Position numbers and translations under genes: made by a program. Shown here in pieces: positions 667 through 29,947 of a stretch of 32,000 nucleotides of DNA. Origin of the DNA: Candidatus Saccharimonadota bacterium (GTDB taxonomy: Bacteria; Patescibacteriota; Gracilibacteria; Absconditabacterales; Absconditicoccaceae); NCBI GenBank assembly GCA_030429145.1, contig JAUIDC010000001.1, forward strand, positions 660,001 through 692,000, in the 5' to 3' direction. The number at the start of each line of letters is the position of its first letter. Position 1 is the first letter of the stretch. The notes beneath the pieces are model-generated. The model made no database searches. It was not told where the DNA came from and saw only the letters and a program-made list of their open reading frames with translations.

Positions 667-3600
667 CTATGAGTCTAAAAGTGAACGTAATTTTGCAATG
701 CCAGTAGGATTCAACTGTCTTTCGATAGCTCCGATAGTGACCTGATGTTCTCCCGGATGTTGTTTGACAACCTGTGCTACCTGTTGTAGTAACGATGGGT
801 TATCAGGGAGGGCGAACTGCATAGGTCATGTGGCTTCTTCATTGCTTGAACTGCCTCAGCCAGTGCTGTTATTTTCGTCGTTGCTATTGCTATCACTATC
901 GCTTTCATCATCTCTGAGTTCGTCTGACGCTTTTTCAGCTTGTTTGAGGCTGATCGTCTCGCCTGTTTCGCTGTCGACGATCTCATCTTCGAGGTCTCCT
1001 GTACCGTGTGCCAGTGCATTGACACCGAGCCTGGTAGTTTTTACCTCCGCGACGGATTCATCATTGTATTTATTTGATTTTTTTGCTTCTTCTATGATAC
1101 TTTCTAGCGATGTTTTCACGATTTTACTGATCTTAAGAGATCTGTTTTTCCAACCTTCAATAATCAAAATATCAAACTTCTGGATATCCAAAGTCTCTTT
1201 CATGAAAAACTCTATCTCATCGGAAATATCTTCTACTGCGACAAAATATCACTTCTTTTTTGCTCTCTGAATGTTTCTCACGAAACAGAGGATCTTCACA
1301 TTGCCAAAGGCCTGTTCTTTGTCGTAATATTTGAACATGCTGATAAGCGAGTATCTTCCTTTGATATATGGATAGAGTCCATCAAATGGATGACCTGACA
1401 CAAATGTTTTAAATACATCATATTCGGTCAGCAGTTTTTCCATTTTACTGGTTGGCTCTGCTTGTTCGAGCTCGAGTTTTGGCTTCACATCGGCGACCGC
1501 AAATAAGCTCTGCTCAGCATTGTTGCTACCCGCCATTTTTACCCACTCAATGATGCGGGGCACATTGTGGAGGATTGTCTTGCGGTCAACAAAACCTGAG
1601 AACGCTCACGCCTTTGCGAGAGATTCCAGTGTTTTTTTGTTGATGAGACTCTCGCACCTTGTGAGAAAATCTTCGAGATCTTTGAACGGACCGTTCTGTC
1701 TTCTTTCTTGCTCGATCTGTTCGCTGACGTCGCCGCCGACTCATTTGATACATTGAAATCCAAGCCTGATCGAATCGTCTATGGCGGCGACATGTCTGAA
1801 CGACTCATTGACATGAGGCGGTAGCACGCGATATCCCTGCAGCTTCAGCTCATTAATAAACTTACTGAGTTTCTCAGCATCTTCTTCAACAGACCTTAGC
1901 AAGGCTGCATTGAACTCAATAGGGTAGTTCGCCTTGAGATAAGCCGTCTGATATGAGAGCATACCATATGTTACCGAGTGGGACTTATTGAATGAGTAGA
2001 ACGCTGCAGGTTCTATCATTTTTTCATAAATCCATGTACTCGTCTCCTCTTTATATCCTCTAAATGAAGCAGCTTTTTCGATGAACTGTCACTTAATTTC
2101 TTCAATAACTTCTTTAATTTTCTTACCAATACCACGTCTCAGATTGTCCGCTTCTGCAAGTGAAAATCACGCCATCGCTTGTACCAAGAACATGAGCTGT
2201 TCTTGATAGACAGCAATACCATAAGTTACTGCGAGAATAGGATCGAGGTCTTCCTCTAATTTTTTCTTTTCTTCCTGTGCCGTTGCCTCGTCGTATTTCT
2301 GTACGAGGATATCCCACAGCTCTGGAAGCATATAATTTTTTTCTTCTTCTCCGTGTTTTCTTGCGATATATCTTGGGATAAACTCCATCGGTCCGGGACG
2401 ATAGAGTGCACCCATCGCGATGATATCGTTTACGTCAGTTGGTTTGAGTTTTACCAAAAAGTTTCTGATACCATCTCATTCAAATTGAAACACTCATGAG
2501 GTGTCTCACTTTTGGAGAACTCTTTCGAAGGTGTTCTGGTCGTCCAATGGTGGTTCAAAAACCATCGTTTCAAAGTAGTTCTGGAAGATCTCTGGTAGAT
2601 CTTTACCAGCATTTTTATATTTCGCTCTGACGATTTTCATCGTATTTTTAATGAGCGTCAAAGTTCTGAGACCCAAAAAGTCCATCTTCAACAGTCCAAT
2701 ATCTTCAAGGTCGTGTCACTCATATTGTGTGACGAGTTCTTTCTTTTCTTCCTCTTCGGGTTTGCTTTTTCCTTGAGGCTTAGGTGGATGCTGTACTGGG
2801 GTATAGGTGGTAATTTCTTCTGGTGCAATGATGATACCACACGCGTGCACACCTGTTCCCCTTACTGTCCCTTCAAGTTTGATAGCTTCGTCAAATGTCT
2901 TTTTGATGATAGGATCATTTTCATACATGTTCCTCAAATCTTCTGTAGCATCGAGCGACGCTTGGATGGTTTTTTCATTGATAAGTGAGGCGATGAAATT
3001 TGATCTATCGAAAGGGATACCCATGACTCTTGCGACATCTTTGAATGCAGCACGAGCAGCCATGGTCATATATGTTCCAATATGTGCAACTTTTTCTTTA
3101 CCGTATTTGTCTGCGACGTAGTCTACTACCTTATCTCTCTGTACATCTTCAAAGTCCACGTCGATATCGGGCATCGACACACGGGCAGGATTGAGAAATC
3201 TTTCAAAGAGGAGATCATAAGGGAATGGATCGACATCGGTAATGCCGGTGAAATAGGCCATGAGTGAACCAGCGGCAGAACCACGTCCAGGGCCCACAGA
3301 GACATCATGTGTCTTTGCCCAGTTGATGAAATCCTGTACGATAAGGAAGTAGGTGTTATATCCCATCTCTTTTACTACTTTGAGTTCATATTCGAGACGC
3401 TCGATATAATCAGCAATTGATATTTTCCCATACAGATTCTCTTTATATTTTGCGATAAGTTTTTTCTTCTCTTCGGTGTAGGTGAGGGCAGTGATTTCTT
3501 TCAGTTCTGCCGGTGTCGTCTCTGTCAGTTTTTTCGTCAAATGACCTTTGTCAGTGATAGCAACCATGCTCAAAATATCTTGGTCTGACCATTCATCTAT

Positions 3601-3669
3601 CTCCATTCTTCTCTTCATCCCCGCATATGACAGGTAACGTAATTCAAATTCAAAAATATCCATTCTCAC
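667..3669 (-). CDS. dnaE: DNA polymerase III alpha subunit, C-terminal fragment (palm/thumb/fingers, beta-binding, HhH, OB and C-terminal tail); lacks the PHP domain
   Basis: Six track ORFs (2716-3669, 2506-2691, 2167-2457, 1741-2019, 1249-1563, 856-1203) share one frame and are joined only by TGA (11 in total). Motifs: GPGRGSAAGS, LLFERFLNPARVSMPDIDVDF, KMDFLGLRTLT, LYRPGPM, YGIAVYQEQ, FNKSHS. TGA aligns with conserved Gly (CIK[TGA]VGG vs E. coli AIKGVGEG; QAMA[TGA]FSLAEAD vs VLSGYTLGGAD). An in-frame TAA lies 7 codons upstream of the ATG at 3669, and the gene ends with TAG at 667. Confidence 0.93.
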
Positions 3670-3790
3670 TCAACTCGTGGAAAATTAAAACGGACTTTTA
3701 TTGTGTTTGCCCCCTTTATAAAAAAATGAGAATAGAAGTCTATGCGTAAATTAAAAAAACCTCCCGTAGGAGATTTTTCGTTGGAGTTTA

Positions 3791-4573
3791 TTATAGATCT
3801 TTTTCTTTGATATTAGTTTCGCTGTAGTCGTGTGTTGACTGTACTCTGTGTCAGCTTGCTGTTGACCAAGTTTTTCGCGATGCCAACCCATCATTGATTT
3901 TGAGAAACACCTTACCATCACGACCTATTGCGCCTCTCGCATAGAGGAGCAGGTTAATGCTTTGTTGTTCTTCGACGGTAAGATCTGATACATGATCGAG
4001 ATATACATACGCACTTCATTTGTTTGCTTGCAAGATTTTTCCAATGGCGTTCAGCGGCACATCTGTTTCAAATTTATAGACACTATTGAGTACTTCTTCT
4101 TTATTTTCTCTGTCATCAAAGCTTTGTAAAAACTTTTGAAACTCCTGTTTGTAGGTAGTCATGAATGCTTTATAGTCCTCAGAAGAAACTTGTTTCATTT
4201 CGTCGTTGATCATGCTTCTTTGTACTATTGATTTTATAGCCATTTCTTCACTTTCTCTCCCAGGATATTTGTTCATTACTGCGTGCATGATAGCAAACAT
4301 GACATCATCTTCTCCTTTTGCACTACAATCAACATACATAATTGGACTAGTGTCACTCAGCGCTTCTGCAAGCTGCTTTTGGTGCTTTTCTTGCATGATC
4401 TCAGAAATAGTTTTTTCTAGCTTCAACTCATTACCTTCTTTCCGAGGCACTTTTGATCTATCAAAATCAAAAGGCTTTGTCTCTTGATGCTCATACTGAG
4501 GACAAATCATCGTGCAGTCTTGGTAGTCTAAGACCATATCTATCACAATTGATGCGGGTGATTTCTGAGCCAT
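3791..4573 (-). CDS. Hypothetical protein (260 aa)
   Basis: Track ORF 4016-4573 continues through TGA at 4016 and 3851 to TAA at 3791. The extension (SAYVYLDHVSDLTVEEQQSINLLLYARGAIGRDGKVFLKINDG...) looks protein-like rather than random. I recognise no family. Confidence 0.6.
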
Positions 4574-5247
4574 TTTTTATCATGGGAGTATTTAAATGGA
4601 GATATTGTATCTAATTGTGTTGTTAAGTCAATGATTGAAAAAGAAATCCCCCAACTGATACAGCCGGGGGGATAGTTTGTTCATTGGAAATTTATTACCT
4701 TGCCTTTTGATGTTATACCTTCGCCCTCCCTAGGGTCAAACCCTTTGATGACATGTTCTAGTTCTGCATAGTATCGGATGTTGTGCGTATGCGAGATAAA
4801 GATCACATAATGCTCTTGTACGATGTCCTTGATACTTCTCCTGAGGTTCTCGTCAGTGCACTTATTTCGTTCGTCTAGCGAAATCTCATGAGCAGACAGT
4901 ATACAAGTTACTTCCACATCATTCTTTTCAAGTTCATCTTTCAGAAGCCTGGCCGAGTTTTGGGGTCGGTCCAGAGGACTGTGTACGATAATGACGCGTG
5001 TGTGTTGAGGGAGTTCACTCTGCAATAGCTTCCATACTTCGTGTGTTCTTCTGAGATTTTCTTGTGTGTGATGTGACATACTATCTCGGAATGTCCAGAC
5101 GCGTAGCAGAGAGTAATCGAATAAGGGCAGTGGTTCATCAATAGGAGCCTTAACGGTAATTGTTGTCTCGGGCTCATTTTGTTCTTTTTTTCGCAAAAAG
5201 GGCAATAGCGATGTAATAATATTCCAAATTGCATTTGGTTTTGACAT
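4540..5247 (-). CDS. Histidine-phosphatase (SixA/PGAM superfamily)-like protein. The literal table-25 model ends at TAG 4540; the recognisable domain ends at the TGA at 4681
   Basis: Track ORF 4681-5247 (188 aa) carries VIIVHSPLDRPQNSA (family motif SPLxRAxQTA) and FISHTHNI (second conserved His). The position of the RHG motif reads FRDS. After the TGA at 4681, the next non-TGA stop is 47 codons away, beyond the hairpin, and the extension overlaps the next gene's start. Confidence 0.45.
4604..4631 (-). promoter_or_regulatory. Sigma70-like promoter for the 3791-4573 gene
   Basis: On the minus strand: TTGACT (4631-4626), a 16-nt spacer, then TACAAT (4609-4604). It ends about 30 nt upstream of the ATG at 4573 and lies immediately downstream of the hairpin at 4646-4673. 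Confidence 0.45.
4646..4673 (-). terminator. Rho-independent terminator-like hairpin
   Basis: ATCCCCC (4646-4652) pairs with GGGGGAT (4667-4673), with an inner CTG/CAG extension. On the minus strand it is followed by TTCTTTTTC. It begins 8 nt after the TGA at 4681-4683. Confidence 0.55.
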
Positions 5248-5419
5248 AAGGCTCGTTTTGTTTTAGATCTGTATTCTATCGATTTGATGAAATAAGTCAA
5301 CATTGTTCGACTGGTAAGTCCATCGGTAAGTTGTAATATTTTCTTTTGCATTGACTATCTAAATCACTATTTATAGATGATAACTAGGTCGATTTTTTAC
5401 TATTGGAACAAATAGATAT

Positions 5420-7336
5420 ATGACAGCAAAGAAACAAGAGTATGATGCATCGCAGATTAAAGTCCTTGAGGGATTGGAGCCTGTGAGACAGAGACCCGGA
5501 ATGTATATTGGTTCGACAGATGTAAGAGGACTTCATCACTTAGTATATGAAATTGTCGACAATGGTGTGGACGAAGCACTGGCTGGATATTGTAACAATA
5601 TATCACTGACTATCCACAAAAATGGATGGGTGAGTGTGAAAGATGATGGTCGTGGTATCCCAGTGGATATTGTAGGGAAGACTGGAAAGTCAGGTCTTGA
5701 AACAGTGTTGACCGTGCTCCATGCTGGAGGTAAGTTTGAAAAGAGTGCATATAAGGTTTCAGGAGGTCTGCATGGTGTGGGTGCTTCTGTGGTAAATGCT
5801 CTTGCAACAGAACTGAAAGCAACTGTCTATAAACATGGGAAGATTCATACTATTTCATTCAAACGTGGTGTACCAACGTCTGAGTTGCAGGTGGTTGGAG
5901 AGACAGATCTTCAGGGTACAACTATTGAATTTCTTGCTGATGATACTATTTTCGAAACAACAAAATACAACTATGAAACTCTCTCATCTCGTTTGAAGTA
6001 TGCTGCATATCTTACTCCGGGTGTTACATTTACTATCACCGATGAGGCTGCTGGTAAAGCAGAAAGATTTTACTATGAAGGTGGTATCAAGACATGGTTG
6101 AAAAATCTTGTGGATGATCAAAAGCCATTGTCAGCACTACACTATGTTAATAAAGAAGGAAAGGATGTACTGGTTGAGATCTCATTTCAGTACGTAAACT
6201 CAAACAATGATAATATCCTCTCATTCGTAAATAATATTAATACCACAGACCACGGTACTCATGTCGTTGGTTTCAAAAACGCCATGACCAATGTGATCAA
6301 CGAAGTAGCGAAGGCAAAAGGTAAGATCGACAATAAAATTGGTGAGTTCCAAGCATCAGACATTACTGAAGGTTTGTATGCTATTGTGACAGTGAAGATT
6401 CCTGAGCCTCAGTTTGAAGGTCAGACAAAAGGAAGACTTGGAAATAGTTATGTAAAGAAAGAGGTTGAAGAGATTGTTACTGACTATCTCAGATCTCACT
6501 TTGCTGAAAACGAAGAAGAGTTTGACTCTATCCTTGAAAGGATTGTGCTTTCTGCAAGAGCAAGACTTGCAGCAAAGTTTGCTCGTGAAACAGTACTGAG
6601 AAAGAACGTGCTAGCTGGAGGAGTACTTCCAGGTAAGCTTTCAGACTGTTCAAGACGTGGTAAAGAGGGTACAGAGATGTTTATCGTCGAGGGTGATTCG
6701 GCGGGGGGTACTGCGAAGCAGGGACGTGATAGTGAATTTCAAGCTATCTTGCCACTCAGAGGTAAGATCCTCAATACCGAGCAAGCTATGGTACAGCGTA
6801 TCATGGGCAATAACGAAGTGAAGTCACTTATCACCGCTATTGGTGCAGGACTCAAAGATATGTATGAGGAAGACAAGTTGAGATATGATAAGATCGTTAT
6901 CATGACCGACGCCGATGTCGATGGTGCGCATATTAGAACACTTCTTCTCACATTCTTCTTTAGATATATGAGACCACTTATTGAAAATGGTCATCTCTAT
7001 ATTGCTGTTCCACCTCTCTATAAGGTAAAACAGGGGAAGAAAGAGCAGTATATCTATCCTGTAGATGATTCAGACCTTGCGGCTTCACTTAAGAAGTACG
7101 GCTTCAAAACCGATGAAAAGTATGAGATCCAGCGTTATAAGGGTCTCGGTGAAATGAATGCTGAGCAGCTCTGGGAGACAACTATGGATCCGGTAAGAAG
7201 AAAGATGTTGCAGGTGACAGTAGAAGATGCAGAGGAGGCAGACAAGCTCTTCCGTATCCTCATGGGTGACGATGTGATGAGTAGAAAGCACTTCATCCTC
7301 ACTCACGCAAAGAAAGTGAAAGAACTCGACGTATAA
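5420..7336 (+). CDS. gyrB: DNA gyrase subunit B
   Basis: Uninterrupted 638-aa ORF. Motifs: LEGLEPVRQRPGMYIG, GGLHGVGASVVNALS-type GHKL ATPase motifs, the Toprim EGDSAGG, and PLRGKILN, IMTDADVDGAHI and QRYKGLGEM. Stop is TAA. There are no in-frame TGA. Confidence 0.97.
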   Translation: MTAKKQEYDASQIKVLEGLEPVRQRPGMYIGSTDVRGLHHLVYEIVDNGVDEALAGYCNNISLTIHKNGWVSVKDDGRGIPVDIVGKTGKSGLETVLTVLHAGGKFEKSAYKVSGGLHGVGASVVNALATELKATVYKHGKIHTISFKRGVPTSELQVVGETDLQGTTIEFLADDTIFETTKYNYETLSSRLKYAAYLTPGVTFTITDEAAGKAERFYYEGGIKTWLKNLVDDQKPLSALHYVNKEGKDVLVEISFQYVNSNNDNILSFVNNINTTDHGTHVVGFKNAMTNVINEVAKAKGKIDNKIGEFQASDITEGLYAIVTVKIPEPQFEGQTKGRLGNSYVKKEVEEIVTDYLRSHFAENEEEFDSILERIVLSARARLAAKFARETVLRKNVLAGGVLPGKLSDCSRRGKEGTEMFIVEGDSAGGTAKQGRDSEFQAILPLRGKILNTEQAMVQRIMGNNEVKSLITAIGAGLKDMYEEDKLRYDKIVIMTDADVDGAHIRTLLLTFFFRYMRPLIENGHLYIAVPPLYKVKQGKKEQYIYPVDDSDLAASLKKYGFKTDEKYEIQRYKGLGEMNAEQLWETTMDPVRRKMLQVTVEDAEEADKLFRILMGDDVMSRKHFILTHAKKVKELDV

Positions 7337-7366
7337 TCTCTTATTTCTTATGATAATTATAGGTGT

Positions 7367-7918
7367 ATGCTACATCTTTTGAAATGACAGCTCGAGAATA
7401 ATGGAGGAAAAACTTTTCTCCACAATGACTTTCTTGGTATAGAGGTCTACTATGCTGGGAAACAAAAAAAAGGAACGTGGTTCCTTTTTCCATATATGGA
7501 TGAAAATCATAAGACTATAGTTTACTTTGCCTTTGATACGATAGAGCAAAGAGTCGCATTTGAGGAGGTGCTCAAAATATCTGGTATTGGCCCGAAGACA
7601 GCTTTTGCGGTGGCGGCTATTGATAAGAAAGAGCTCCAGAAAGCTATAGATGAGTTTGATGTCAAGGCGATTCAAAAGATCCCTGGTATCGGTCCAAAGA
7701 CAGCGAAAAGACTTCTTGTTGAGCTGAAGGCGACGCTTCGTCCAACAGATCTGAAGAAACTGGACATCGATGAGAAACTCTTTAAGAGTATCGTGGCCAC
7801 TATGAAGAATATGGGCCGAGATGCTACTACAGTGAAAAAGAAGTTAGCTGAGTGTCCGATCCCATTGGAAAAGGAGCACTTACAGGATATCATTAAGTGG
7901 CTTATCGGACAAATGTAA
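7367..7918 (+). CDS. ruvA: Holliday junction DNA helicase subunit RuvA
   Basis: The ATG at 7367 gives MLHLLK[TGA=G]QLEN..., matching the RuvA N-terminus MIxxLxG. This extends track ORF 7496-7918. Two HhH motifs are present (ISGIGPKTA and IPGIGPKTAKRL). Stop is TAA. Confidence 0.88.
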
Positions 7919-7943
7919 TCTGTGAATAAACTATTGAAATAAG

Positions 7944-7971
7944 AAAAAACCGTGCATTACGCACGGTTTTT
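7944..7971. terminator. Bidirectional rho-independent terminator
   Basis: AAAAAA-CCGTGC-ATTAC-GCACGG-TTTTT lies between the convergent ruvA (+) and the small acidic ORF (-). Confidence 0.8.
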
Positions 7972-7993
7972 CTATTAGAATCTGAGATCTAAG

Positions 7994-8158
7994 TTATGCA
8001 GCAGCAGCTTCGTTGTTTTCTTCATTGTTTTCTTCATTGTTGTTTTCAGTAGCTGGGTTTGCATTTCCCTCAGTAGTACTTTCTGTACCTTCTGCACCTG
8101 CGTTTTCTTCTGTTGCAGGAGTTTCAACGTTGTTTTCTTCCATATTCATCTTTGTCAT
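7994..8158 (-). CDS. Small acidic low-complexity protein (54 aa, Asn/Glu-rich)
   Basis: MTKMNMEENNVETPATEENAGAEGTESTTEGNANPATENNNEENNEENNEAAAA, ending in TAA. It sits between the dnaE-N stop and the terminator at 7944-7971, so it would be co-transcribed with dnaE-N. The start is uncertain (the track uses TTG at 8203) and there is no clear SD sequence. Confidence 0.35.
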   Translation of the reverse strand: MTKMNMEENNVETPATEENAGAEGTESTTEGNANPATENNNEENNEENNEAAAA

Positions 8159-8246
8159 GGTTGAGAGGATAAAAAAGCTACTACTAGGTAGTAACGACCT
8201 CAAAGGTACCCATTGTCTACCCTAATGCAAGCTTAAATTACGACAA

Positions 8247-9173
8247 TTAAGAAGCCGGTTTTGCACTGAATTGTTCGTATAAATGCTTGATTTCTGTCGG
8301 ACTTTCATATGCAGGGAAAAGGAGCTGATGGAGAGGGATTTTGACGTCAATCATGTTGATCAGTTGATTGTTGTTGTCAATCCGAGTCTGTATTTGTTCC
8401 TTAGAGTACCCATTTGCCTCTAAAAGAGAGATTACTTCCTTTTCGCTCATAATGTGCCAATCTCCTTCTGCTTTCTTTCTGCCATGTTCATAGTATTGTT
8501 TTCCGTCCTTGATACATCTTGCGATATCGAATGCGTCTTTTTCTTCTTCTGAGACATAGTGGAAGTTGTTGTCCACGAGACAAGGGATCGAGCTTGCCTT
8601 GCTCAGGGCTATGATAGCGTCATTTACTTTCTTTATGAGCGGGAGCTCGGTATGTGACTGTGCACATACTTCGAAGAAGAACTGATCAGCAGGAAAGTAT
8701 GAAGCGTAGAGCTGCATGAGTTCTGTCATTTTCTTTTCCGATTCTCATTGTTGTAAAAGCCAAGCTATGTAGCTATTTTCTCCTCAGATGACTCCTATAA
8801 GGTTTGTAGTTCTGTCACGAAGCTTTTCTATGGGGAAACAGGCTGTATTTTCTGAAGATCCTGTATGAGCTTCCGATACGATCTTAAGCAGTTCTTGGTA
8901 TCCTTCATAGTTCTTTGCAAGGAGGGTCATATAGTAGGGTTTGTCTAGTTTCCCTTCTTTCATCATATGCGTGCAGATGTCTACACCTACAAGAGGCTTA
9001 AGATCTTCTTTTTGTGCAACAATAAAGTGCTGAATAGCTCCATACATGCCATTGTAGTCCGAGATTGGCATGACAGTCTGTCCTAAGCTTTTTATCTTCT
9101 TCGCTATAGCTTTGAGATCACCGATAGCATGAAGGAGAGAGTAATGGCTATGTCAGTGTATGTGATTGAACAT
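8247..9173 (-). CDS. dnaE: DNA polymerase III alpha subunit, N-terminal fragment (PHP domain only, 308 aa)
   Basis: The ATG at 9173 gives MFNHIH[TGA]HSHYSLLHAIGDLK... (the PHP HxH motif). It joins track ORFs 8784-9071 and 8247-8729 through TGA at 8784 and 8745. It is colinear with E. coli DnaE residues 1 to about 285, up to LLFPAYESP (E. coli LPQFPTG), and then ends at a genuine TAA (8247) after ...EQFSAKPAS. Confidence 0.9.
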
Positions 9174-9375
9174 CTGATAAGGCAGATAATATAAAGAAGA
9201 AAATGGGTAGAGGAATCTGTCACAGGAGAGAACCCTATTCGTTTATCACTAGTGTATAATTATTTTGCTTGAGTGTTCAATGTCAATGGTGACCTATTTG
9301 CATTGGTATAAAACTTTCGTAGTATAGGAGTCGAGAAAAGAGGATGTTTTTATCATTTTATTGTCGATAGGAGGT

Positions 9376-11682
9376 ATGAAAAGGTATGTGATCAAATGAG
9401 TGACAGGAATATCATTGGGTGCTATTATGTTTACGGGCTTTTTGTTCGCAGATTCTCGAAATTTGCCAGGGGTAAACGTCGTGACGCGTGCAGAGTGGGG
9501 TGCTGATGAGACTATGAAATATGCATCTCGCCAAGAGTATCAAGAGATGGCAAGACTTGCAGAAGAACGTAGAAAGTATATGACAGAGATGGAACATGAG
9601 CATGCTGAAGAGGAGGCTCAAAAGTCTGCTACGGCGCGTGCGTATGCTTTAGAGAATTTTCCGAATGATATACTTCTCGATATGGTAGTTGATACTGAGA
9701 ATGGTCATAAGCTCTGGTGGAAAAAAGAGTATGTGTTCAATAAGACAAAGATACTTGTCCATCATACAGTAAATGATATGTCTAAATTGCAGTCGGAGTC
9801 TGATGTAAAGTCGCTTCTTCGTTCTGTCTATAGATTACACGCTGTCCAACATGGTTGGGGTGATATTGGTTACAATTTTGTCATTTCACCTGGAGGAGTG
9901 ATCTACGAGGGAAGAAGTGGGGGTGAGTGAGTCGTAGGTGCTCATGCTACGCGGAATAATCAGCCGAGTGTAGGTATTGCATTGATTGGTAATTTCCAGG
10001 TCGATCAGCCCACAGACGCTCAAATTGAGGCGTTGATTTCACTGAGTACTGCACTAGCAGCAAAGTATAAAATTGATCCTATGGTTCAGGTTGAATATCA
10101 TAAGAGCTCGTCGAGCTATCCATATGTAGCAACATTGACAAACTTTGCCATTGCTGGGCATAGGGACGTTGGTGCAACAGCTTGTCCAGGTGAGCAGCTT
10201 TATAAGCTTCTTCCAGCTATCCGTGACCGTATCACTTTACAGGTACCAAAATATCTTGCTCAGTATCCAAATGTAAAAGTTATCAACAAGCCAGTTGCTA
10301 CGGTGTCGAATACTACATCAAATATCTCTACATCTACTCCAACACTTCCAACCTCTACTACCGTCGTCAATAGTGTGACTAAAACACAGTTAACACTACC
10401 AGCAGCCTACGGACTTACTAATAATACCTATCTTGCGCGCACGCGCGCACCACATATGGGAACGACGCTGCCTCAGTGTAAGATTATTTCTGGAGAAGTA
10501 ACGCTTGCTGGTTGTATGTATCGCAATGGAGAACTTGTTGTAGGCATCAGAAAAAAGGGAAACAATACGAATCCATGAGTGATACGTGTTGAAGCAAAGT
10601 CTCGTCGCGTAGAGGTGCTATTTGATCTCCCTATAGCATGGGGTGGTAGTAATAATAGCGTTAGACCTTCTCTTCCGACAAGTTCGACTAATACTAATAG
10701 TAATACTTCAGTACAGCAGCCTACAGACCCCGTTCTGACTCAAAGAAGAGCTCAATTCCCCCTTACGATAGCAAATCCTATCACAAAAATTAGCTCACCA
10801 GTGTCTGTTTCACAAGTGCCAGCGCTGATGAAAAAAGATGTCTCAGTGCTTCTGTACAATGCTAGCATGCTCTCATCATCATGGACGTTTATCTGTTCAG
10901 GACAGTGTTCTCTGAGATGAACGCCGTTTGGGACGCTTTCTGTTTCGTTTCATGATGGGATGTTGACAGTGCAAAAATGACCGCTTTCGTGGAAAGAAGC
11001 AAGACTACAACTGGAAACTCAGGGAGATTCTACTATAGCTGTGCTTGATGGTTTGACCAAGAAACAGTATGGTATCTATAGGGGAGACATTACATTGGTA
11101 CCACAGAACATCAGAAAAATAGACGGTAATTATGTTAACCAATATGCTGTGGTAAATACGCTGCCGGTCGAACAATACTTGGCAGGTATGGCAGAGGCGT
11201 CAGATAGAGAGCCATTGGAAAAGACCAAGGTGTTAGCCCTTCTGACGAAGGCGTACGCTCTTTACTACATAGCCGGCAGCGGTCCACATCCTTCTATACC
11301 GAAGGATGCCGTATATCAGGCTATAGATGACCCTCGCTTCTTCCAGAAGTACGTAGGTGTCACTTGGGAGAGAGCATCAAAAAACTGGCCTATAGCAGTA
11401 GAGGCAACAAAAGACAAGTATATTGTCTACAACAATACTTTGCCTATCTTGCCGTATTTCCATTGTTCACCAGGCTTTACATGGTCGGCTCGTGAGAAGC
11501 GAGGACGAACAGACACACCATACCTCAAATCAGTTTTGGATGAGAGTGGTTGTACAAGCTTCGAATGACATGGTGTTGGTCTGAGCTGACAAGGAGCTAC
11601 AAAAAAGGCTGAGAATGGAGAAAAGGCGGAAGATATCTTGAAGTACTACTATGATGGTATAGAGCTGGTCACTATTAGGTAA
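9376..11682 (+). CDS. Secreted or membrane-anchored cell-wall hydrolase: N-acetylmuramoyl-L-alanine amidase (Amidase_2/PGRP type) fused to a SpoIID/LytB domain (768 aa)
   Basis: AGGAGGT lies directly upstream of the ATG at 9376, and the N-terminus has a hydrophobic signal/anchor. Four track ORFs (9400-9930, 9982-10578, 10579-10920, 11041-11568) share one frame and are joined by TGA (7 in total). Amidase_2 motifs: ILVHHT, WGDIGYNFVISPGGVIYEGR, GAHA..N..SVGIALIGNF, AGHRDVGATACPG. Ser/Thr-rich linkers follow. SpoIID motifs: YRGDITL, VNTLPVEQYLAGMAE, and the C-terminal [TGA]HGVGLS[TGA]QGA...ILKYYY. Stop is TAA at 11680. Confidence 0.85.
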
Positions 11683-14214: not shown

Positions 14215-16050
14215 ATGAAAAACATCGTGGAACTTTTGGATACCATCGCAACTATACCTCACAAAGATGCTCTTAATGTGCTCAAGCGTACTAAGAGAGA
14301 CTTTGCGAAGAAGTATAATATTTCTGATATTCCAAGCAATGTTGATCTCTTGAAACAGTATCGTCAACTTGTGTCTACTGGTGTCTACTCTAAGAGTGAA
14401 CGTGTAGAACAACTTCTTAAGAAAAGAGGAGTGCGTTCTGAGTCAGGTATAGTGCCAATACAAGTTCTTACAAAACCTTTTTGGTGTCCTGGTGAGTGTA
14501 TCTTCTGCCCCAATGATGCTACCATGCCAAAGAGTTATATCAATACCGAACCAGGAGCGATGCGTGCATTGCTCAATCAGTTCGACCCGTATAAACAGAC
14601 CTACAATAGATTACTTTCTTTGCATATGACAGGTCATGAGACTGATAAGATAGAGATGATCGTTCTTGGGGGTACGTGGGATGTCTATCCAAATGGGTAT
14701 AAGAGAGATTTCTTGAAATGATTGTATGATGCATGTAATACTTTTGACCAGTTTCTCGAGCAGTATGAACAACACAATATTCGTTGTGGTAAGTATAACC
14801 TTGCGGACCTTGGGATAGACTATCCGAAAACGATAGATGAGTCGATGTTGATCAATGAGACAGCTAATCATCGCATGATCTGATTGACGATTGAGACGAG
14901 ACCTGAATATATGACAGATGAGAACTGTCAGATGTGGCGTAGCCGAGGAGTGACTCGTCTGGAGATGGGACTACAATCTATGTTCGATGATGTGCTGGAT
15001 GCAAACAAGCGTGGGCACTCTGTCCAGCAAGCGAGAGAGGCGGTACATAAGATGCGCCAGTATGGGTTTAAGTTCTCTATCCACTTCATGCCAGGACTTT
15101 ATGGATCGACGGTAGAGAAAGACATTGAGTCATTTAGGCTCGCCTATGAAGATCCGTATATTAAACCTGATGAGATTAAATTCTATCCGACGGCGGTTAT
15201 CCCGAATACGGAGCTCTATGAGCTTTATCGTAAAGGAAACTACAAACCGTTGGAGACAGAGGATATTATTCATATCATCCGTAAAGTGCAGGGGGATATT
15301 ATTCCGCCTTATACGAGAATCAAACGTTTGATTCGTGATATTCCTTCGACTGAAATTGTTGCAGGAAGTAATATTACGAACTTGAGACAGATCACTGAAA
15401 ATAAGATGCAAGAAGAGTTAAATGGAGATGAAGGTAAGAGAAAAAAGTTGTATGGGAGACTCTATGACCAATCCCAAGTTTTTGTTTCATTGACCGAGCG
15501 ATTACAGGCAAAACATGCTGATGAGGAGGTCGCTATCATCTGACAACAGCCTGATGCGATTTCTATGAGAAACTTTGTTGCGCTTGATACCAGAGCAAGA
15601 GAGATTCGTAACAGGAAAGATAAGCCTGAGCAAGAGAGTGCTAACCTAGTTGTTAGAAAATACCAATCATCTGTAGGAGATGAGTATTTTATCTCTTATG
15701 AGGATGAGCTTGGGTATCTGTATGGGTTTACGAGGCTCCTTCTTCCGAGAGACGAGCACGCATTTGAGTGGGAGTGACTGGGAAAACATACAGCACTCAT
15801 CAGAGAGTTGCACGTCTATGGTCAAATGGCGTCGCTTCGCGACGAATGAAAAATTGAAAATTGAAAATCTAAACACCCACACCAACAGCACAAGGGTTTT
15901 GGTTCAAGACTTATGGAGGCAGCAGAACAAATAGCCAAGCATTATGACTACCAAAAGATCTCAGTTATTTCTTGAATCTGAGTCAGAGAGTATTATAAGA
16001 AAATAGGTTATCAGAAAGAATGAACGTATATGGTTAAATCATTATCATAA
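14215..16050 (+). CDS. elp3: Elp3-family radical-SAM / GNAT acetyltransferase (tRNA U34 carboxymethyl-type modification enzyme), 611 aa
   Basis: ORFs 14215-14721, 14884-15543 and 15565-15777 plus the tail to 16050 share one frame and are joined by about 10 TGA. Radical-SAM cluster: KPFWCPGECIFCP (CX3CX2C). Also present: IETRPEY, GVTRLEMGLQS, and the GNAT motifs RELHVYG and QHKGFGSRLMEAAE. The C-terminus reads VIS[TGA]I[TGA]VREYYKKIGYQKE[TGA]TYMVK, matching the Elp3 pattern VISGIGTRxYYxKLGYxxxGxYMxK. Confidence 0.88.
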
Positions 16051-16277: not shown

Positions 16278-17183
16278 ATGATAGTAGGAAATCAGTCGGT
16301 GCAGGAGATGATGCATGCGTTTATAGAGAAAATTAAGTCAGCAAAAGCTGTGTCTGCACCTTTTGTGATTTTTCATGGGCCTGAACATGTGGGAAAGAGT
16401 ACTTTGGCTCTTGAACTTGCGCAGGAACTTGTGTGACCTTTTGGTCAGAGCGACATTTTGCACATCAAGGATTTATCTCATGTTACTGGCAAGAAGCATA
16501 CGCTGAAAGTCGAGGCGGGAGATGATATTGAGCTAGATAATGGTTCAAAATATGAAGACCTTGGAGCAAGAGAGATTCGCGAATGGATGGCAAAATCAGC
16601 GATCGGCGAATATAAGGTACTGATATTGGAAAACATTGAACGTATGACCGCAAGTGCTGCGAATGCGTTTTTGAAGTACTTTGAGGAGCCATATCCGAGA
16701 ACGTTGATTATTGCAACAACAAGAAATAAAGGGGAACTCCTAGATACTATTGTCTCTCGTGCATTGCTTATCGCATTTAACTATGTGAAGGACAATGAAG
16801 TAGACAAGCTTTTTGAGAAGAAGTATCCGGAAATACCAGAGACAAAACGCCAGGCATTGGTTGATCTTGCTGGATGAAGTCCTGGGTTTGTCATTACATT
16901 GATGGGCAAAGACAAAGAGATGATCACTGATCTGCAGGATAGTATTTTACGTTTCGTCTCTCTCCACCAGCAGGGTGCGAGCCTCGTGAATGTGTTCCGC
17001 TTGTTGACAGAGATGAATGGGAAGTGATATATTGGTGTGTTTCTCGACACGTTACTGTATCACTATGAGCGTGAGGGAAACTATAAGATGATTAATGAGT
17101 TGATCCTGACGAGAAAGAGGATAGATGCAAATGTGTCTGTCGAGAATGTGCTTTTTAATTTCGCCTTGCATAACGTCGAGTAG
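16278..17183 (+). CDS. holB: DNA polymerase III delta-prime subunit (clamp-loader AAA+), 301 aa
   Basis: AGGAGGT precedes the ATG at 16278. Features: degenerate P-loop FHGPEHVGKSTLA, KVLILENIERMTASAANAFLKYFEEP, an SRA/sensor motif IVSRAL, and LAG[TGA=G]SPG. TGA at 16431, 16875 and 17025. Stop is TAG. Confidence 0.8.
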
Positions 17184-21140: not shown

Positions 21141-22607
21141 TTACAGTCCGTCTACCATAACCATGAGATCTTGCTCGAGCTGTTTGTCATGTCTCATAAG
21201 TTTCTCGAAGTTCTCTATCGCGTAGATAACAGTTGCGTGGTTACGTCATCCAAAGTAATCTCCGATCTTCTCTAGTGTTCGGTCAAAGTACTTTTTCGCA
21301 ATGAACATGAGCATTTGTCTTGCTTGAGAGATCTCTTTTTTTCTACTATCTCATCTGACGTCGTTGACAGAGATATTGTAGTAGTTTGCTGCTTTATCGA
21401 CGATCTTTGAGAATGCTCCTGTACTTCTGTTGCTTACAGCTGTTGGTGTTTCTTCTTCGTCTGGTGTTACTTTGTATCCGAGTGTTCCAAGGCAGTCCAA
21501 CACGTCTTCAGTTTCGATCTCTTTTTCCATAAGAGCTTTCTTTGTCATAAGGATGTTGAGAGCTCCTTCTAGTTCTCTCACGTTTGTCTTGATGTGTTTT
21601 GCAAGCAACCCAAGCTCTTCACCAGAAAGTCTCTCACCGCGATTTGCCAATTTCGACTGAAGAATTGCAACTCTTGTCTCGTAGTCTGGAGCTTTAATGT
21701 CACAAACAAGACCAATAGCAAAGCGAGTTCTCAGTCTTTCTTCAAGAAGGGTAAGTTCTCTTGGCGCACGATCAGAGGTAAGGATGATCTGTTTCTTTTT
21801 TGACTGAAAATCATTGAAGATATTGTGAAATACCTCCTGTGTCTTTTCTTTTTCCGCGATAAATTGGATGTCATCAATCATGAGGACATCAATACTATCG
21901 AGTCTTTGCATAAGGTCATGCATCTTGTTTTTTCTTGTTGCATCAACTATCTCATCGATAAGCTTGGTAGCAGGGAGGTAGACTACTACTTTGTCAGTAT
22001 AGAGCTTCATGATTTCATTACCGATAGCCTGCATGAGATGTGTTTTCCCAAGTCCAACTTGTCCGTAGATGAAAAGAGGATTGTATGCTGTACCTGGCTT
22101 TTCAGCGGTTTGCTGTGCTGCGTTAAATGCCATTTTACTGCTAGATCCAGCAACGAAGTTGTCGAAAGTAAATTTCTCATCGAACATAATACCGAATTGA
22201 TCGGTGAAAGTTTTCTTCGTTTTATTGTCGATTTTCATTTCTTTCTCAGGTTTGTCTGCAATGTTGAGTACCTTTTTGAGATCAATGAGTAGGTCATGTT
22301 TACCCGCTTGAAAAGGTGCATAACAGATGAGTTTGAGAGAAAATTGTGGATTGTAGACGTCTTCTATCGCTTGATTCAGCCCTTTAGTAAGAAATTTTTT
22401 AATCTGAGAAAGTGAGAATTCGTTCGCAACGCCCACATAGATATGTTTGGTCTTTTCATCAATCGCTACGATACCGCTCTTACTGAGAAACGTAAAAATC
22501 TTTTTTATATCGTAGTGCTGTCCGAGGTGGATAACTATCTTGATCCAGAGCTCTTTAAGAAACTGCTTTTGCTCTGTATCATAATCTTTAATCATATCAA
22601 CTAACAT
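21141..22607 (-). CDS. dnaA: Chromosomal replication initiator DnaA (488 aa)
   Basis: Track ORF 21351-22607 has Walker A GQVGLGKTHL, the box VLMIDDIQF and the sensor LTSDR. It continues through the TGA at 21351 into domain IV: SQARQMLMFIAKKY...IGDYFG[TGA=G]RNHATVIYA (consensus FGGRDHTTV). Stop is TAA at 21141. Confidence 0.95.
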
Positions 22608-22718
22608 GATAATCTCAGACAGGAATAAAATACCGGTGCCTGTAACGATACGAAAGTAGATAGAGTTTTCAACACAATTAAGAGAATATTTTTCACTGTT
22701 TTGCTTGACAAAAATATA

Positions 22719-22746
22719 TTGATAATTTTAAAAAATATCTTATAGT
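22719..22746 (+). promoter_or_regulatory. Sigma70-like promoter for the 22768 gene
   Basis: TTGATA (22719-22724), a 16-nt spacer, then TATAGT (22741-22746). It ends 21 nt upstream of the ATG at 22768. Confidence 0.4.
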
Positions 22747-22767
22747 ATAAATCTAAATCGAATAATT

Positions 22768-23169
22768 ATGAAACAGAAAAGATCATTAGCAGATAGTCCG
22801 GTGAGGTTCTCTCTGGCCGTTATATTTATTACTGTTACTTTAGGGCTGATTGTCATCTCATTTGTGCATTGGCCTCCAGAGACCATGCTTTTGTTGTTGT
22901 GTGTTAATCAGGTTATTAAGAACTGGAAAGAAGTTTTAGCAATATGTGTTATTTCTTTCTTTACCTGCCTGATTTCCTTCTCAATAGTTTCATTGCTTGG
23001 TTGGTTATTTGACTGGGGAGAAGCAATGCGAACTGTAAGTCTTATTTTATTGGGCATTTATGTCCTGGGACTTATTCTTGATGAACATAATCGTCAGCCA
23101 TATATTTGGTTATGGCAAGAAGGGAAGAGACTATTTCGTCGTAAAGCTGGACCAATGCTATTAAACTAA
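22768..23169 (+). CDS. Small membrane protein (133 aa, 3-4 predicted helices)
   Basis: Uninterrupted ORF with hydrophobic segments (FSLAVIFITVTLGLIVISFV, VLAICVISFFTCLISFSIVSLLGWL, VSLILLGIYVLGLIL). Stop is TAA, followed by a strong terminator. I recognise no family. Confidence 0.55.
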   Translation: MKQKRSLADSPVRFSLAVIFITVTLGLIVISFVHWPPETMLLLLCVNQVIKNWKEVLAICVISFFTCLISFSIVSLLGWLFDWGEAMRTVSLILLGIYVLGLILDEHNRQPYIWLWQEGKRLFRRKAGPMLLN

Positions 23170-23188
23170 TGAACTGTCATTATTTGAT

Positions 23189-23217
23189 AAAGCCGCTGTA
23201 ATACAGCGGCTTTTTTC
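23189..23217. terminator. Bidirectional rho-independent terminator
   Basis: AGCCGCTGT-AAT-ACAGCGGCT followed by TTTTTT. It lies between the convergent 22768 gene (+) and the UPF0371 gene (-). Confidence 0.8.
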
Positions 23218-28996: not shown

Positions 28997-29947
28997 TTAC
29001 ACTATAATTCTTCCTTTCGTTGTCTTCTCTATCTTACCAAGTTTGAGAAGTAGCGGTTCGATATCTTCCTCGATAGACTTTTCTGAGACTCAGAGCTTTG
29101 CTGCGAGTGTTTTGACTCCGACTGGGGCGTCGTACTCTCAGAGCACATCAAGATATTTTTTATGGAGAGAGGTGAGTCATCACTTGTCGATGTTGACCCA
29201 TTGGTCAAAGTCCTCTCGAAATGACTCATCGAACGAAAAGTCCTTGCCATTGTGTTCGGTATGAGAGATAAGATAGTCTCTGATCTTGACGATAAAGTTG
29301 TGAATTTCTCTTGGTGTAGACTCTACTTTCTCTTCGATCCTTTGGATGATAGCATCTATTGCTTCGATAAAATAGAGCTTCATATATCTTTTGATGATTT
29401 GAATTTTTTCTTCTTGTGAGTAGTCGTTGAAGTGAAACTTATAGACGAATCTATTTTTGAGCGGAGTGGCCACAGCTTCCAGTCTGGTCGTTGCGCCAAT
29501 AAGTGTAAATGGATTGATAGGAATCCTTACGCTTCCGCCTTCAGGCATGACCATGTCGATGACAAAGTCTTCCATCGCAATGTAGAGTATCTCTTCGATA
29601 TTTGGCTTTAGTCTATGGATTTCATCGATAAAGAGGATGTCTCATTTTTCGACATTATTCAGGATAGAGATGAGCTCTGAAGGCTTTGTGATAGCGTAGC
29701 CGGTCACGATTTTGATGTTCACGCCAAGCTCTTTTGCAATGATCTGAGCTAGCGTTGTTTTTCCATGTCCGCTTTCACCAGAAAACAGGATATGCCCGAG
29801 GGGATGTCCTGCTTGTTTTGCTGACTTGATAGCTGTATATACAATTCTTTTTATCTCTTCCTGTCCAATGAACTCGGCCAACAGTCATGGTCTTATCGGT
29901 GCGCTTTCATCTTGTTTCGTCTCGACGCGTATCTTCTTAATTTCCAT
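28997..29947 (-). CDS. ruvB: Holliday junction DNA helicase RuvB (316 aa)
   Basis: The ATG at 29947 gives MEIKKIRV...RP[TGA=G]LLAEFIGQEEIK. Walker A: GESGHGKTTLA. Walker B: ILFIDEIHRL. Also EEILYIAMEDF. The C-terminal winged helix reads NIDK[TGA][TGA]LTSLHKKYLDVL[TGA]EYDAPVGVKTLAAKL[TGA]VSEKSIEEDIEPLLLKLG. ORFs 29642-29881 and 29180-29575 are joined by TGA. Stop is TAA at 28997. Confidence 0.92.

What the first reader, a model, noticed from the sequence alone, without database searches (positions are those of the whole stretch)
667..9173. dnaE is encoded as two separate genes (PHP domain and polymerase core) 4.6 kb apart, with no intein
Seen directly: the 308-aa product of 8247-9173 is colinear with DnaE residues 1 to about 285, the whole PHP domain (HIHGHSHYSLL...LLFPAYESP). 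It stops at a real TAA.
The 1000-aa product of 667-3669 starts at an ATG seven codons after an in-frame TAA. It picks up where the first piece ends: EFELRYLSYAGMKRR aligns with T. aquaticus LRELTFLGLLRRY, then GPGRGSAAGS and onwards to the C-terminal tail.
Both halves are on the minus strand in N-to-C order. Between them lie two orphan genes, gyrB, ruvA (opposite strand), a small acidic ORF, two terminators and at least one promoter. One transcript or read-through therefore cannot rejoin the halves.
The cyanobacterial split DnaE is rejoined by a split intein. Here there is no Cys/Ser-initiated ~100-aa N-intein and no ~35-aa C-intein ending in HN+Cys/Ser/Thr.
Inference: the replicative polymerase may assemble non-covalently from a free PHP subunit and a core subunit. 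This would parallel the split genes of Nanoarchaeum-type reduced symbionts. I do not know of a described precedent for an intein-less PHP/core split of DnaE.
Basis: partly seen in the sequence, partly recalled or inferred. Interest (0 to 1): 0.85.

Follow-up and report, generated by a model that had tools for sequence, protein, structure and literature searches.

The report
Two-gene DnaE replicase without intein
In this TGA-recoded (SR1/Absconditabacteria-like) bacterium and in all its sampled relatives, the main DNA-copying enzyme is encoded as two separate genes, a small PHP piece and a large polymerase piece, with nothing to splice them together, so the enzyme probably works as two proteins that dock onto each other.

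Summary
Read with TGA = Gly, 8247-9173(-) encodes a 308-aa PHP protein and 667-3663(-) a 998-aa polymerase core. Together they tile the DnaE model (positions 6-293 and 295-1105 of 1146) and an intact Gracilibacteria DnaE, with no overlap, no loss and no intein or intron.

The split is neither an assembly artefact nor gene decay.
- The same break, to within a few residues, occurs in 42 species-level genomes and about 60 protein clusters at 50% identity.
- One of these is the closed genome RAAC1_SR1_1, where the pieces lie 197 kb apart on opposite strands.
- Both pieces are under purifying selection.
- The split clade is monophyletic. Its sister group is TGA-recoded bacteria that keep an intact dnaE.

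Two changes came before the break:
- loss of most PHP metal ligands (3-4 of 9, against 9 of 9 in other CPR bacteria);
- a linker insertion of about 20 aa, which the break directly follows.

Best explanation: one ancient gene fission gave a heterodimeric alpha subunit with a non-catalytic PHP subunit acting in trans. Physical assembly is inferred, not shown. I found no published description. Interest is moderate to high, as a new variant of a known kind.

The parts
8247..9173 (-). dnaE-N: free-standing PHP subunit, 308 aa. It has three in-frame TGA = Gly codons (aa 7, 130, 143) and stops at TAA. It carries the whole PHP domain plus the strand LFPxY and a clade-specific tail helix (..I..LY..).
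   Evidence: Pfam PHP E 1.6e-24; PRK05673 model positions 6-293. AF2 model of the 72%-identical homologue P0002 has pLDDT 85 and matches the Pol III alpha PHP domains of Taq, Mtb and E. coli (TM about 0.76-0.79).
667..3663 (-). dnaE-C: polymerase core, 998 aa, from ATG 3663 (a GTG at 3669 is a less likely alternative start). It contains palm (PDIDVDF), thumb, fingers, HhH, the clamp-binding motif EQSLF, an OB-like region and a C-terminal domain with an acidic low-complexity insert. It has 11 TGA = Gly codons.
   Evidence: DNA_pol3_alpha 1e-92, finger 6e-49, HHH_6 6e-25; PRK05673 positions 295-1105; at least 82 of 120 homologues begin with the same M-D-I-F-E-F-E-L-R-Y; in L005 the ATG directly follows an in-frame stop.
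9259..9286 (-). Promoter-like site (TTGACA-16-AATAAT, 11/12), about 85 nt upstream of the PHP gene's ATG. It lies in the divergent intergenic region shared with the amidase gene.
   Evidence: This is a consensus match only.
8177..8195 (-). Terminator-like hairpin plus T-run, 52 nt after the PHP gene's stop codon.
7994..8158 (-). Small acidic ORF (54 aa, MTKMNMEENNVETPATEEN...) downstream of the PHP gene. L005 has a counterpart of similar position and composition.
   Evidence: No family hit.
7944..7972 (.). Strong 13-bp hairpin with T-runs, placed between the convergent small ORF and ruvA. Probably a bidirectional terminator.
   Evidence: The weak sub-threshold Rfam hits here are chance matches to the hairpin.
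5420..7918 (+). gyrB (5420-7336) and ruvA (7367-7918), on the opposite strand between the two dnaE pieces. The divergent gyrB/core pairing is conserved in L005, L086 and L087.
3791..5247 (-). orfB (4540-5247) and orfA (3791-4573): lineage-specific orphan ORFs between gyrB and the core gene. A hairpin plus T-run (about 3775-3750) follows orfA, ahead of the core gene's 127-nt leader.
   Evidence: no family hits; no counterpart in L005; sequence.
9376..11682 (+). Amidase_2 + SpoIID cell-wall hydrolase gene, divergent from the PHP gene. This pairing is conserved in more than 30 related genomes and marks the PHP gene's own conserved locus.

Best explanation
dnaE underwent one ancient gene fission in the common ancestor of the SR1/Absconditabacterales-like, TGA = Gly clade to which this genome belongs. 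The break lies in the connection between the PHP domain and the palm, roughly E. coli alpha residue 285-290 or Taq residue about 310. It comes directly after a linker insertion of about 20 aa that the clade shares with its intact-dnaE sister group.

Since then the alpha subunit has been made as two polypeptides from two independent transcription units: PHP, about 35 kDa, and core, about 114 kDa.

The steps below are inferred, not shown.
- The two proteins associate non-covalently to rebuild the normal alpha fold.
- The conserved segments flanking the break (LFPxY..P..I..LY at the PHP C-terminus and MDIFEFELRY at the core N-terminus) contribute to docking.
- The PHP subunit is catalytically dead and acts as a structural stabiliser. 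As in E. coli, it may also be the docking site for a separate proofreading exonuclease.
- All polymerase chemistry, clamp binding and DNA binding reside in the core.
For: SHOWN
- Exact tiling. DnaE model positions 6-293 and 295-1105. Against the intact recoded DnaE L068, PHP aa 2-302 maps to 4-300 and core aa 5-770 maps to 315-1042. The junction read by eye shows no duplication or loss.
- Same break across the clade. All 23 close homologues of the PHP piece are free-standing proteins of 209-327 aa. 42 GTDB species genomes have a stop at 305-315 aa. The top ~62 clusters in an exhaustive search of 1.84 billion proteins are free-standing; scores then fall without a gap (232 to 228 bits) to intact DnaE proteins of mostly 950-1500 aa. 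The best 120 core homologues all lack a PHP domain. Projected PHP ends and core starts cluster at L068 coordinates 301-310 and 311.
- Independent loci. In the closed genome CP006913 the core is at 378,490-381,318 (+) and the PHP gene at about 578.7-579.6 kb (-). Of 21 split loci with at least 9 kb on both sides, only L005 has the core nearby.
- Purifying selection, window vs L005: PHP pN 0.22 against pS 0.86; core pN 0.13 against pS 0.77.
- Single origin. An NJ tree makes the split clade monophyletic and sister to the intact recoded L045/L068.
- No rejoining device. No Hint or intein family, no Rfam intron or ribozyme, and a conserved ATG start and stop codon.
- Dead PHP. The window keeps 3 of 9 metal ligands and the clade typically 3-4, while 49 of 54 intact relatives keep all 9. 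L068 and L045 already have only 3 and 4.
- The PHP piece is predicted to fold as a complete PHP domain on its own.

FROM THE LITERATURE
[quoted passage not shown] - E. coli PHP residues 1-270 are stable alone and bind epsilon (PDB 4GX8/4GX9; PMC3664792).
Against: - No direct evidence that the two proteins bind each other.
- The rest of the genome could not be searched for a second intact dnaE or polC.
- The PHP piece evolves faster than the core (65% vs 80% identity to L005). The genes are unlinked in most genomes, which would also fit some functional independence.
- No dnaQ-like gene was seen in the loci held, but these cover only local neighbourhoods.
- The NJ tree has no support values.
Confidence: 0.8

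Rival explanations
1. Neofunctionalised PHP. The core polymerase works without any PHP domain, and the free PHP protein has taken on an unrelated role, such as another phosphoesterase-like or scaffolding function.
For: The genes are unlinked in most genomes. PHP evolves faster than the core. The PHP gene sits in its own conserved neighbourhood beside a cell-wall amidase.
Against: Most metal ligands are lost and the remaining positions vary, which argues against a new enzymatic role. The break-flanking tail and the core N-terminus are among the best conserved parts of each protein. No C-family replicase lacking a PHP domain is known, and PHP integrity is needed for Pol III stability (PMC3666897; PMC3919608). 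Both pieces are retained together in all three genomes where both could be located.
Confidence: 0.1
2. The halves are rejoined after transcription or translation, by an atypical split intein, RNA trans-splicing or another ligation, to give a normal single-chain alpha.
For: The cyanobacterial DnaE precedent. Atypical split inteins can have very short N-fragments.
Against: No Hint or intein family in either piece. There are no spare residues: only about 6 + 4 residues lie outside the alignment to intact L068, far too few for either intein half. The core begins with a conserved Met and not with a C-intein ending in HN followed by Cys/Ser/Thr. No intron or ribozyme was detected. The split site differs from the cyanobacterial one.
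Confidence: 0.03
3. Artefact or decay: a mis-assembled contig, a sequencing frameshift, or a dying dnaE whose function has passed to an intact paralogue.
For: The window is a single metagenome-type sequence. Fragmented dnaE genes caused by frameshifts do occur (PMC3919608). L084 looks like one.
Against: The same break is found in 42 independent species genomes and in a closed genome. The start and stop are conserved. Both pieces are under purifying selection while synonymous sites are saturated. Real genes lie between the pieces on the opposite strand.
Confidence: 0.02

Closest known systems
Canonical single-chain DnaE1 Pol III alpha (E. coli 2HNH/5FKU, T. aquaticus 2HPI, M. tuberculosis 5LEW)
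   Same: Same domains in the same order: PHP, palm, thumb, fingers, HhH, clamp motif, OB/CTD. Sequence and predicted-fold matches are strong.
   Different: The PHP domain is a separate polypeptide from a separate, usually unlinked gene. There are extra linker insertions around the PHP-palm junction.
Cyanobacterial split DnaE with split intein (Synechocystis/Nostoc DnaE-n and DnaE-c)
   Same: The replicative alpha subunit is encoded by two distant genes.
   Different: From established knowledge, the cyanobacterial break lies much further downstream (about residue 774), and the halves carry N- and C-intein fragments that ligate them. Here the break is at the PHP-palm junction and no intein is present.
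E. coli-type degenerate PHP domain that binds the epsilon proofreader (4GX8/4GX9; Barros 2013, Ozawa 2013)
   Same: Metal ligands are lost, so the domain probably has a structural or docking role. The isolated domain is a stable folding unit.
   Different: In E. coli the domain is covalently part of alpha. Whether SR1 has an epsilon that docks on the free PHP protein was not tested.
Split protein-coding genes of reduced symbionts (Nanoarchaeum equitans type)
   Same: An essential information-processing protein is encoded as two unlinked ORFs that tile the intact orthologue and are presumed to work as a non-covalent heteromer.
   Different: A different domain of life and a different protein. 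Here the fission is fixed across a whole bacterial clade of many species and not seen in one genome only.

Membership tests
C-family replicative polymerase DnaE (Pol III alpha) | Polymerase core: palm with the PDxDxDF catalytic motif, fingers and an HhH DNA-binding domain | tested here: met
   Pfam DNA_pol3_alpha 1.1e-92, DNA_pol3_finger 5.7e-49, HHH_6 6.2e-25. TIGR00594 scores 744.8 bits against a cut-off of 434. PDIDVDF is visible in the sequence.
C-family replicative polymerase DnaE (Pol III alpha) | N-terminal PHP domain on the same polypeptide | tested here: not met
   The PHP domain is on a separate 308-aa protein. None of the 120 best core homologues carries PF02811.
C-family replicative polymerase DnaE (Pol III alpha) | Score above the DnaE equivalog cut-off (PRK05673, 1002 bits) | tested here: not met
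   The core scores 771.8 bits and the PHP piece 148.7 bits. Neither reaches 1002, and nor does their sum. This is expected for a split and divergent CPR protein.
C-family replicative polymerase DnaE (Pol III alpha) | Internal beta-clamp-binding motif (QxxLF) and C-terminal OB/tau-binding region | tested here: inconclusive
   EQSLF is present after the HhH domain (sequence). The NCBIfam alignment runs to model position 1105 of 1146. There is no Pfam OB hit.
Split-intein DnaE (cyanobacterial type) | N-intein at the C-terminus of piece 1 and a C-intein ending in HN plus Cys/Ser/Thr at the N-terminus of piece 2 | tested here: not met
   No Hint or intein Pfam hit. The pieces tile intact L068 with about 10 residues to spare. 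The core starts MDIFEFELRY.
Active PHP proofreading exonuclease (Taq/Mtb DnaE1 type) | Nine conserved metal-binding residues (H, H, D, H, E, H, C, D, H) | tested here: not met
   The window keeps 3 of 9 (H6, H8, H205). Most split-clade proteins keep 3-4, while 49 of 54 intact relatives keep all 9.
Degenerate PHP plus separate DnaQ-epsilon proofreader (E. coli type) | A DnaQ-like exonuclease with a PHP-binding tail encoded in the genome | not tested
   Only local loci could be searched. A tblastn with E. coli DnaQ (sequence written from memory) found nothing in them.
Non-covalent split-gene heteromer (Nanoarchaeum-type gene fission) | Two ORFs that tile the intact orthologue, each with its own start and stop, conserved and under selection | tested here: met
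Non-covalent split-gene heteromer (Nanoarchaeum-type gene fission) | Physical association of the two products | not testable with these tools
No proteomic data are available.

The most novel reading that the evidence does not exclude
The SR1/Absconditabacterales replicase is a naturally heterodimeric Pol III alpha, with a catalytically dead PHP domain as a dissociable, separately expressed subunit. This would be the first C-family replicase known to use its PHP domain in trans. The fission would have been made possible by earlier loss of PHP catalysis and by a linker insertion. The free subunit could be dosed or exchanged independently, for example to recruit a proofreader. It would give a natural system for isolating the long-debated non-enzymatic role of the PHP domain.
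Probability: 0.6. Interest if true: 0.72.

Novelty: new variant of a known kind. Interest (0 to 1): 0.65.

Why it matters
Surveys and structural work treat the PHP domain as a strictly conserved, covalent part of every bacterial replicative polymerase (PMC3666897, PMC3919608), and its non-catalytic role is still not understood. A whole bacterial clade, including human-oral and predatory SR1 bacteria, that has kept PHP and polymerase as two proteins over deep divergence has several consequences.
- It shows that the covalent link is dispensable.
- It offers a natural two-component system for studying what PHP does for the polymerase: stability, allostery or proofreader docking.
- It marks a permissive split site for engineering DnaE.
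- It provides a clean genomic synapomorphy that separates the SR1-type lineage from its intact-dnaE, TGA-recoded sister lineage.
- It matters for annotation and completeness scoring of these genomes. The core falls below the DnaE equivalog cut-off, and the PHP gene is easily mis-called under the wrong genetic code.

Tried and rejected
- Table-11 ORF calling fragments both genes, so I re-called ORFs with TGA as sense.
- A MAFFT column comparison seemed to show that the PHP tail and the core N-terminus both match the same helix of intact DnaE, which would mean a junction duplication. Inspecting the intact recoded L068 and L045 showed this is an alignment artefact caused by a clade-specific linker insertion, so there is no duplication.
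- My first choice of two PHP ligand columns was off by one. It was redone using Taq motifs.
- The short (about 290-490 aa) non-SR1 hits in the exhaustive search were checked. They run on into the palm helix, so they are truncated fragments of intact genes and not further splits.
- A tblastn with E. coli DnaQ against all held loci found nothing. This is uninformative, because only neighbourhoods were covered.
- Rfam scans for intron or ribozyme pieces were negative. There are no tRNAs in the window.
- PHROGs and NCBIfam gave nothing for orfA, orfB or the small ORF.
- Nine literature searches found no description of an intein-less PHP/core split. The library lacks most subscription journals, so absence is not proof.

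Full report

Under the standard code the region breaks into short ORFs. One is 8247-9173(-), 308 aa. The other is 667-3669(-), 1000 aa from a GTG, or 998 aa from the ATG at 3663.

The 14 in-frame TGA codons of the two genes align mainly with glycine in 40 intact, non-recoded homologues. At the four best-conserved columns 32-38 of 40 are Gly, and Trp is essentially absent. The genome therefore uses code 25. The PHP gene ends in TAA. The ATG of the core gene lies seven codons after an in-frame TAA.

NCBIfam's DnaE equivalog PRK05673 (1146 positions) aligns PHP aa 2-296 to positions 6-293 and core aa 58-977 to positions 295-1105. Pfam finds only PHP in the first protein. In the second it finds DNA_pol3_alpha, the finger domain and HHH_6. 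PDB searches give Pol III alpha of T. aquaticus, E. coli and M. tuberculosis as best matches for both pieces.

The genes between the two pieces are as described:
- two orphan ORFs on the minus strand;
- gyrB and ruvA on the plus strand;
- a 54-aa acidic ORF;
- terminator-like hairpins;
- a strong promoter-like site upstream of the PHP gene.

**2. Is it an artefact, decay, or a real state?**

It is a real and ancient state.

- All 23 close homologues of the PHP protein are free-standing proteins of 209-327 aa, with identity as low as 31%.
- A scan of one genome per GTDB species found 539 relatives, of which the best 80 were kept as loci. In 42 loci the PHP ORF stops after 305-315 codons. Two more are cut by contig ends. 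The other 36 carry longer ORFs, mostly 1050-1440 codons, that run on into the polymerase core.
- The 42 split loci are almost all TGA-recoded. They carry SR1, Absconditabacterales, 'Peribacteria' or Gracilibacteria labels. The loci with an unbroken ORF are mostly other CPR lineages.
- An exhaustive profile search of 1.84 billion cluster representatives puts about 62 free-standing PHP clusters at the top. Scores then pass without a gap (232 to 228 bits) to intact proteins of mostly 950-1500 aa. The few short lower-ranked hits are truncated fragments of intact genes.
- The best 120 homologues of the core are 894-1105 aa and none contains a PHP domain. They include proteins named DNA polymerase III subunit alpha from Absconditabacterales, Absconditicoccaceae and candidate division SR1.
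- The break is at the same place throughout. Projected onto the intact DnaE of locus L068, the PHP proteins end at coordinates 301-310 and most cores begin at 311. At least 82 of 120 cores begin M-D/H-I/L-F/H-E-F-E-L-R-Y.
- In the closed genome of SR1 bacterium RAAC1_SR1_1 (CP006913) the core lies at 378,490-381,318 on the plus strand. The PHP gene lies at about 578.7-579.6 kb on the minus strand (L029). They are 197 kb apart on opposite strands.
- Of 21 split loci with at least 9 kb on both sides, only L005, the window's closest relative, has the core nearby.
- Between the window and L005, synonymous sites are saturated (pS 0.77-0.86) while non-synonymous differences are few: pN 0.22 for PHP and 0.13 for the core. 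gyrB (0.09) and ruvA (0.17) are comparable. Both pieces are therefore under purifying selection.

**3. Is anything present that could rejoin the halves?**

Nothing was found.

- Neither piece hits a Hint or intein family.
- Against the intact, TGA-recoded DnaE of L068 (1325 aa), PHP aa 2-302 aligns to 4-300 and core aa 5-770 to 315-1042. Only about ten residues are left unaccounted for. That is too few for either half of any split intein, including the atypical ones with short N-fragments.
- The core starts with a conserved Met. In L005 this Met directly follows a stop codon.
- Rfam finds no group I or II intron or ribozyme, either at gathering thresholds across the window or at E <= 1 in 3500-9500.
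- A single transcript is irrelevant in any case. The products would still be separate, and in other genomes the genes are on opposite strands.

**4. How did it arise?**

A neighbour-joining tree of the core region, without support values, makes the split clade monophyletic. Its sister group is two TGA-recoded lineages that keep an intact dnaE: L068 (Gracilibacteria UBA9566) and L045. Other CPR bacteria fall outside. Two changes came before the break.

First, the nine PHP metal ligands are complete in 49 of 54 intact relatives. They are reduced to 3-4 both in the split clade (the window keeps H6, H8 and H205) and in the intact L068 and L045.

Second, L068, L045 and the split clade share insertions around the PHP-palm junction. 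One is a segment of about 20 residues (...LY..Y...P.G) between the last PHP-associated strand (L-F/I-P-x-Y/F) and the first palm helix (E-F/W-E/N-L-R-Y-L..G). The gene is broken immediately after this segment.

An apparent duplication of the junction helix, suggested by an automatic alignment, turned out to be an artefact of this insertion.

Synteny gives two conserved blocks. The PHP gene is divergently paired with an Amidase_2/SpoIID gene in more than 30 genomes. The core is divergently paired with gyrB in the window, L005, L086 and L087. Only the window and L005 have the two blocks side by side. The window lineage is nested within the clade and not basal. Whether this adjacency is ancestral therefore remains open, as does the question of insertion or inversion at the junction against later rearrangement.

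**5. How does it most likely work?**

The following points are shown.
- The core carries the catalytic palm motif (PDIDVDF), the fingers, the HhH domain and a clamp-binding motif (EQSLF).
- The PHP protein is predicted to fold alone into a complete PHP domain. The AF2 model of the 72%-identical P0002 has pLDDT 85 and pTM 0.82. Its best structural matches are the Pol III alpha PHP domains, and it also matches the isolated E. coli PHP-epsilon chimera 4GX8.
- Confidence in that model dips at the former ligand loop (residues 12-16) and at the LFPxY strand next to the break (281-290).
- The segments flanking the break are among the best conserved parts of each protein. In the PHP tail, F286, P287 and Y299 are invariant and Y289 reaches 95%. 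In the core, the first 16 columns average 0.77 against 0.64 overall.

From the literature:
[quoted passage not shown] - In E. coli the epsilon subunit docks on the PHP domain (PMC3664792).

I therefore infer that the two proteins reassemble non-covalently into a normal alpha fold, and that the PHP subunit acts as a non-catalytic stabiliser. It may also serve as the proofreader docking site. This last step is the weakest. No dnaQ could be looked for genome-wide, and no interaction could be modelled.

**6. Comparison with what is known**

It works like a canonical DnaE1. It fails the family's architectural definition on one point, because the PHP domain is not on the same chain. It also falls below the equivalog score cut-off.

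It is not a member of the cyanobacterial split-intein class. The split site is different and there is no intein.

It resembles the E. coli type of degenerate PHP domain. In genetic logic it resembles the unlinked split genes of Nanoarchaeum-type reduced genomes.

The large survey of Pol III alpha architectures mentions only intein-split cyanobacterial genes and frameshifted fragments (PMC3919608). The Vampirococcus genome paper does not mention the split (PMC8080830). Nine full-text searches found no description. The library lacks most subscription journals, so prior mention cannot be excluded. The proteins are in public databases, where the cores are simply labelled 'DNA polymerase III subunit alpha' or 'hypothetical protein'.

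**7. Verdict**

It is extended from one genome to a whole clade. It is also refined: the PHP subunit is catalytically dead, a linker insertion preceded the break, and the two genes are usually unlinked.

- Real, conserved two-gene DnaE: about 0.95.
- The two products form the functional alpha: about 0.8.
- Novelty: a new variant of a known kind.
- Interest: 0.65.

Noticed in passing
window 4540-5247 (orfB) and 4573-4690: orfB's first in-frame TGA (4683-4681, codon 189) is followed at once by a strong terminator-like hairpin (4670-4648), a promoter-like site (4631-4604) and orfA's ATG (4573). This is the layout of a gene that ends at TGA, which is odd in a TGA = Gly genome. orfA and orfB have no family hits and no counterpart in the closest relative L005. 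They could be recently acquired foreign DNA, or the match could be coincidence.
   Followed up: partly
window 7994-8158 (-); L005 11197-11319: A small, very acidic ORF (54 aa, rich in E, N and T) lies just downstream of the PHP gene. The closest relative has an ORF of similar position and composition. No family hit; function unknown.
   Followed up: partly
window 21141-22607 (-), 16278-17183 (+), 28997-29947 (-): The window is a replication and repair neighbourhood. It holds dnaA, a holB-like delta' subunit and ruvB (far from ruvA at 7367-7918), as well as gyrB and both dnaE pieces. The 0.6-kb gap upstream of dnaA (22608-23216) is a candidate origin region and was not examined.
   Followed up: no
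window 14215-16050 (+): An Elp3-like protein (Radical_SAM + Radical_SAM_C + GNAT acetyltransferase), conserved at 74% identity in L005.
   Followed up: no
window 9376-11682 (+) and more than 30 related loci (e.g. L002 7655-9901): A large Amidase_2 + SpoIID fusion protein is divergently paired with the PHP gene across the clade. The shared intergenic region carries the best promoter-like sites. The reason for this conserved pairing is unknown.
   Followed up: partly
protein P0147: One cluster representative is a 653-aa protein made of the free-standing PHP piece (residues 1-309) plus a tail of about 340 aa with no Pfam hit. It could be a gene fusion or a mis-called read-through.
   Followed up: partly
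L084 10925-13235: In this genome an otherwise intact, non-recoded DnaE aligns as two adjacent segments, and its ORF ends after 690 codons. It looks like a frameshift or sequencing error, unlike the clean split studied here.
   Followed up: no
L068 and L045 (intact recoded DnaE), residues about 285-400: The intact-dnaE sister lineages share with the split clade about 20-aa and about 50-60-aa insertions around the PHP-palm junction, and also a degenerate PHP site. The polymerase was therefore already unusual before the fission.
   Followed up: partly
protein P0001 (database record of the window's own PHP gene): The public gene call for this genome's PHP protein starts at Met35 (274 aa), so it lacks the HxH motif. 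The database writes TGA as Trp. Annotation of these genes is unreliable under the wrong code or start.
   Followed up: no
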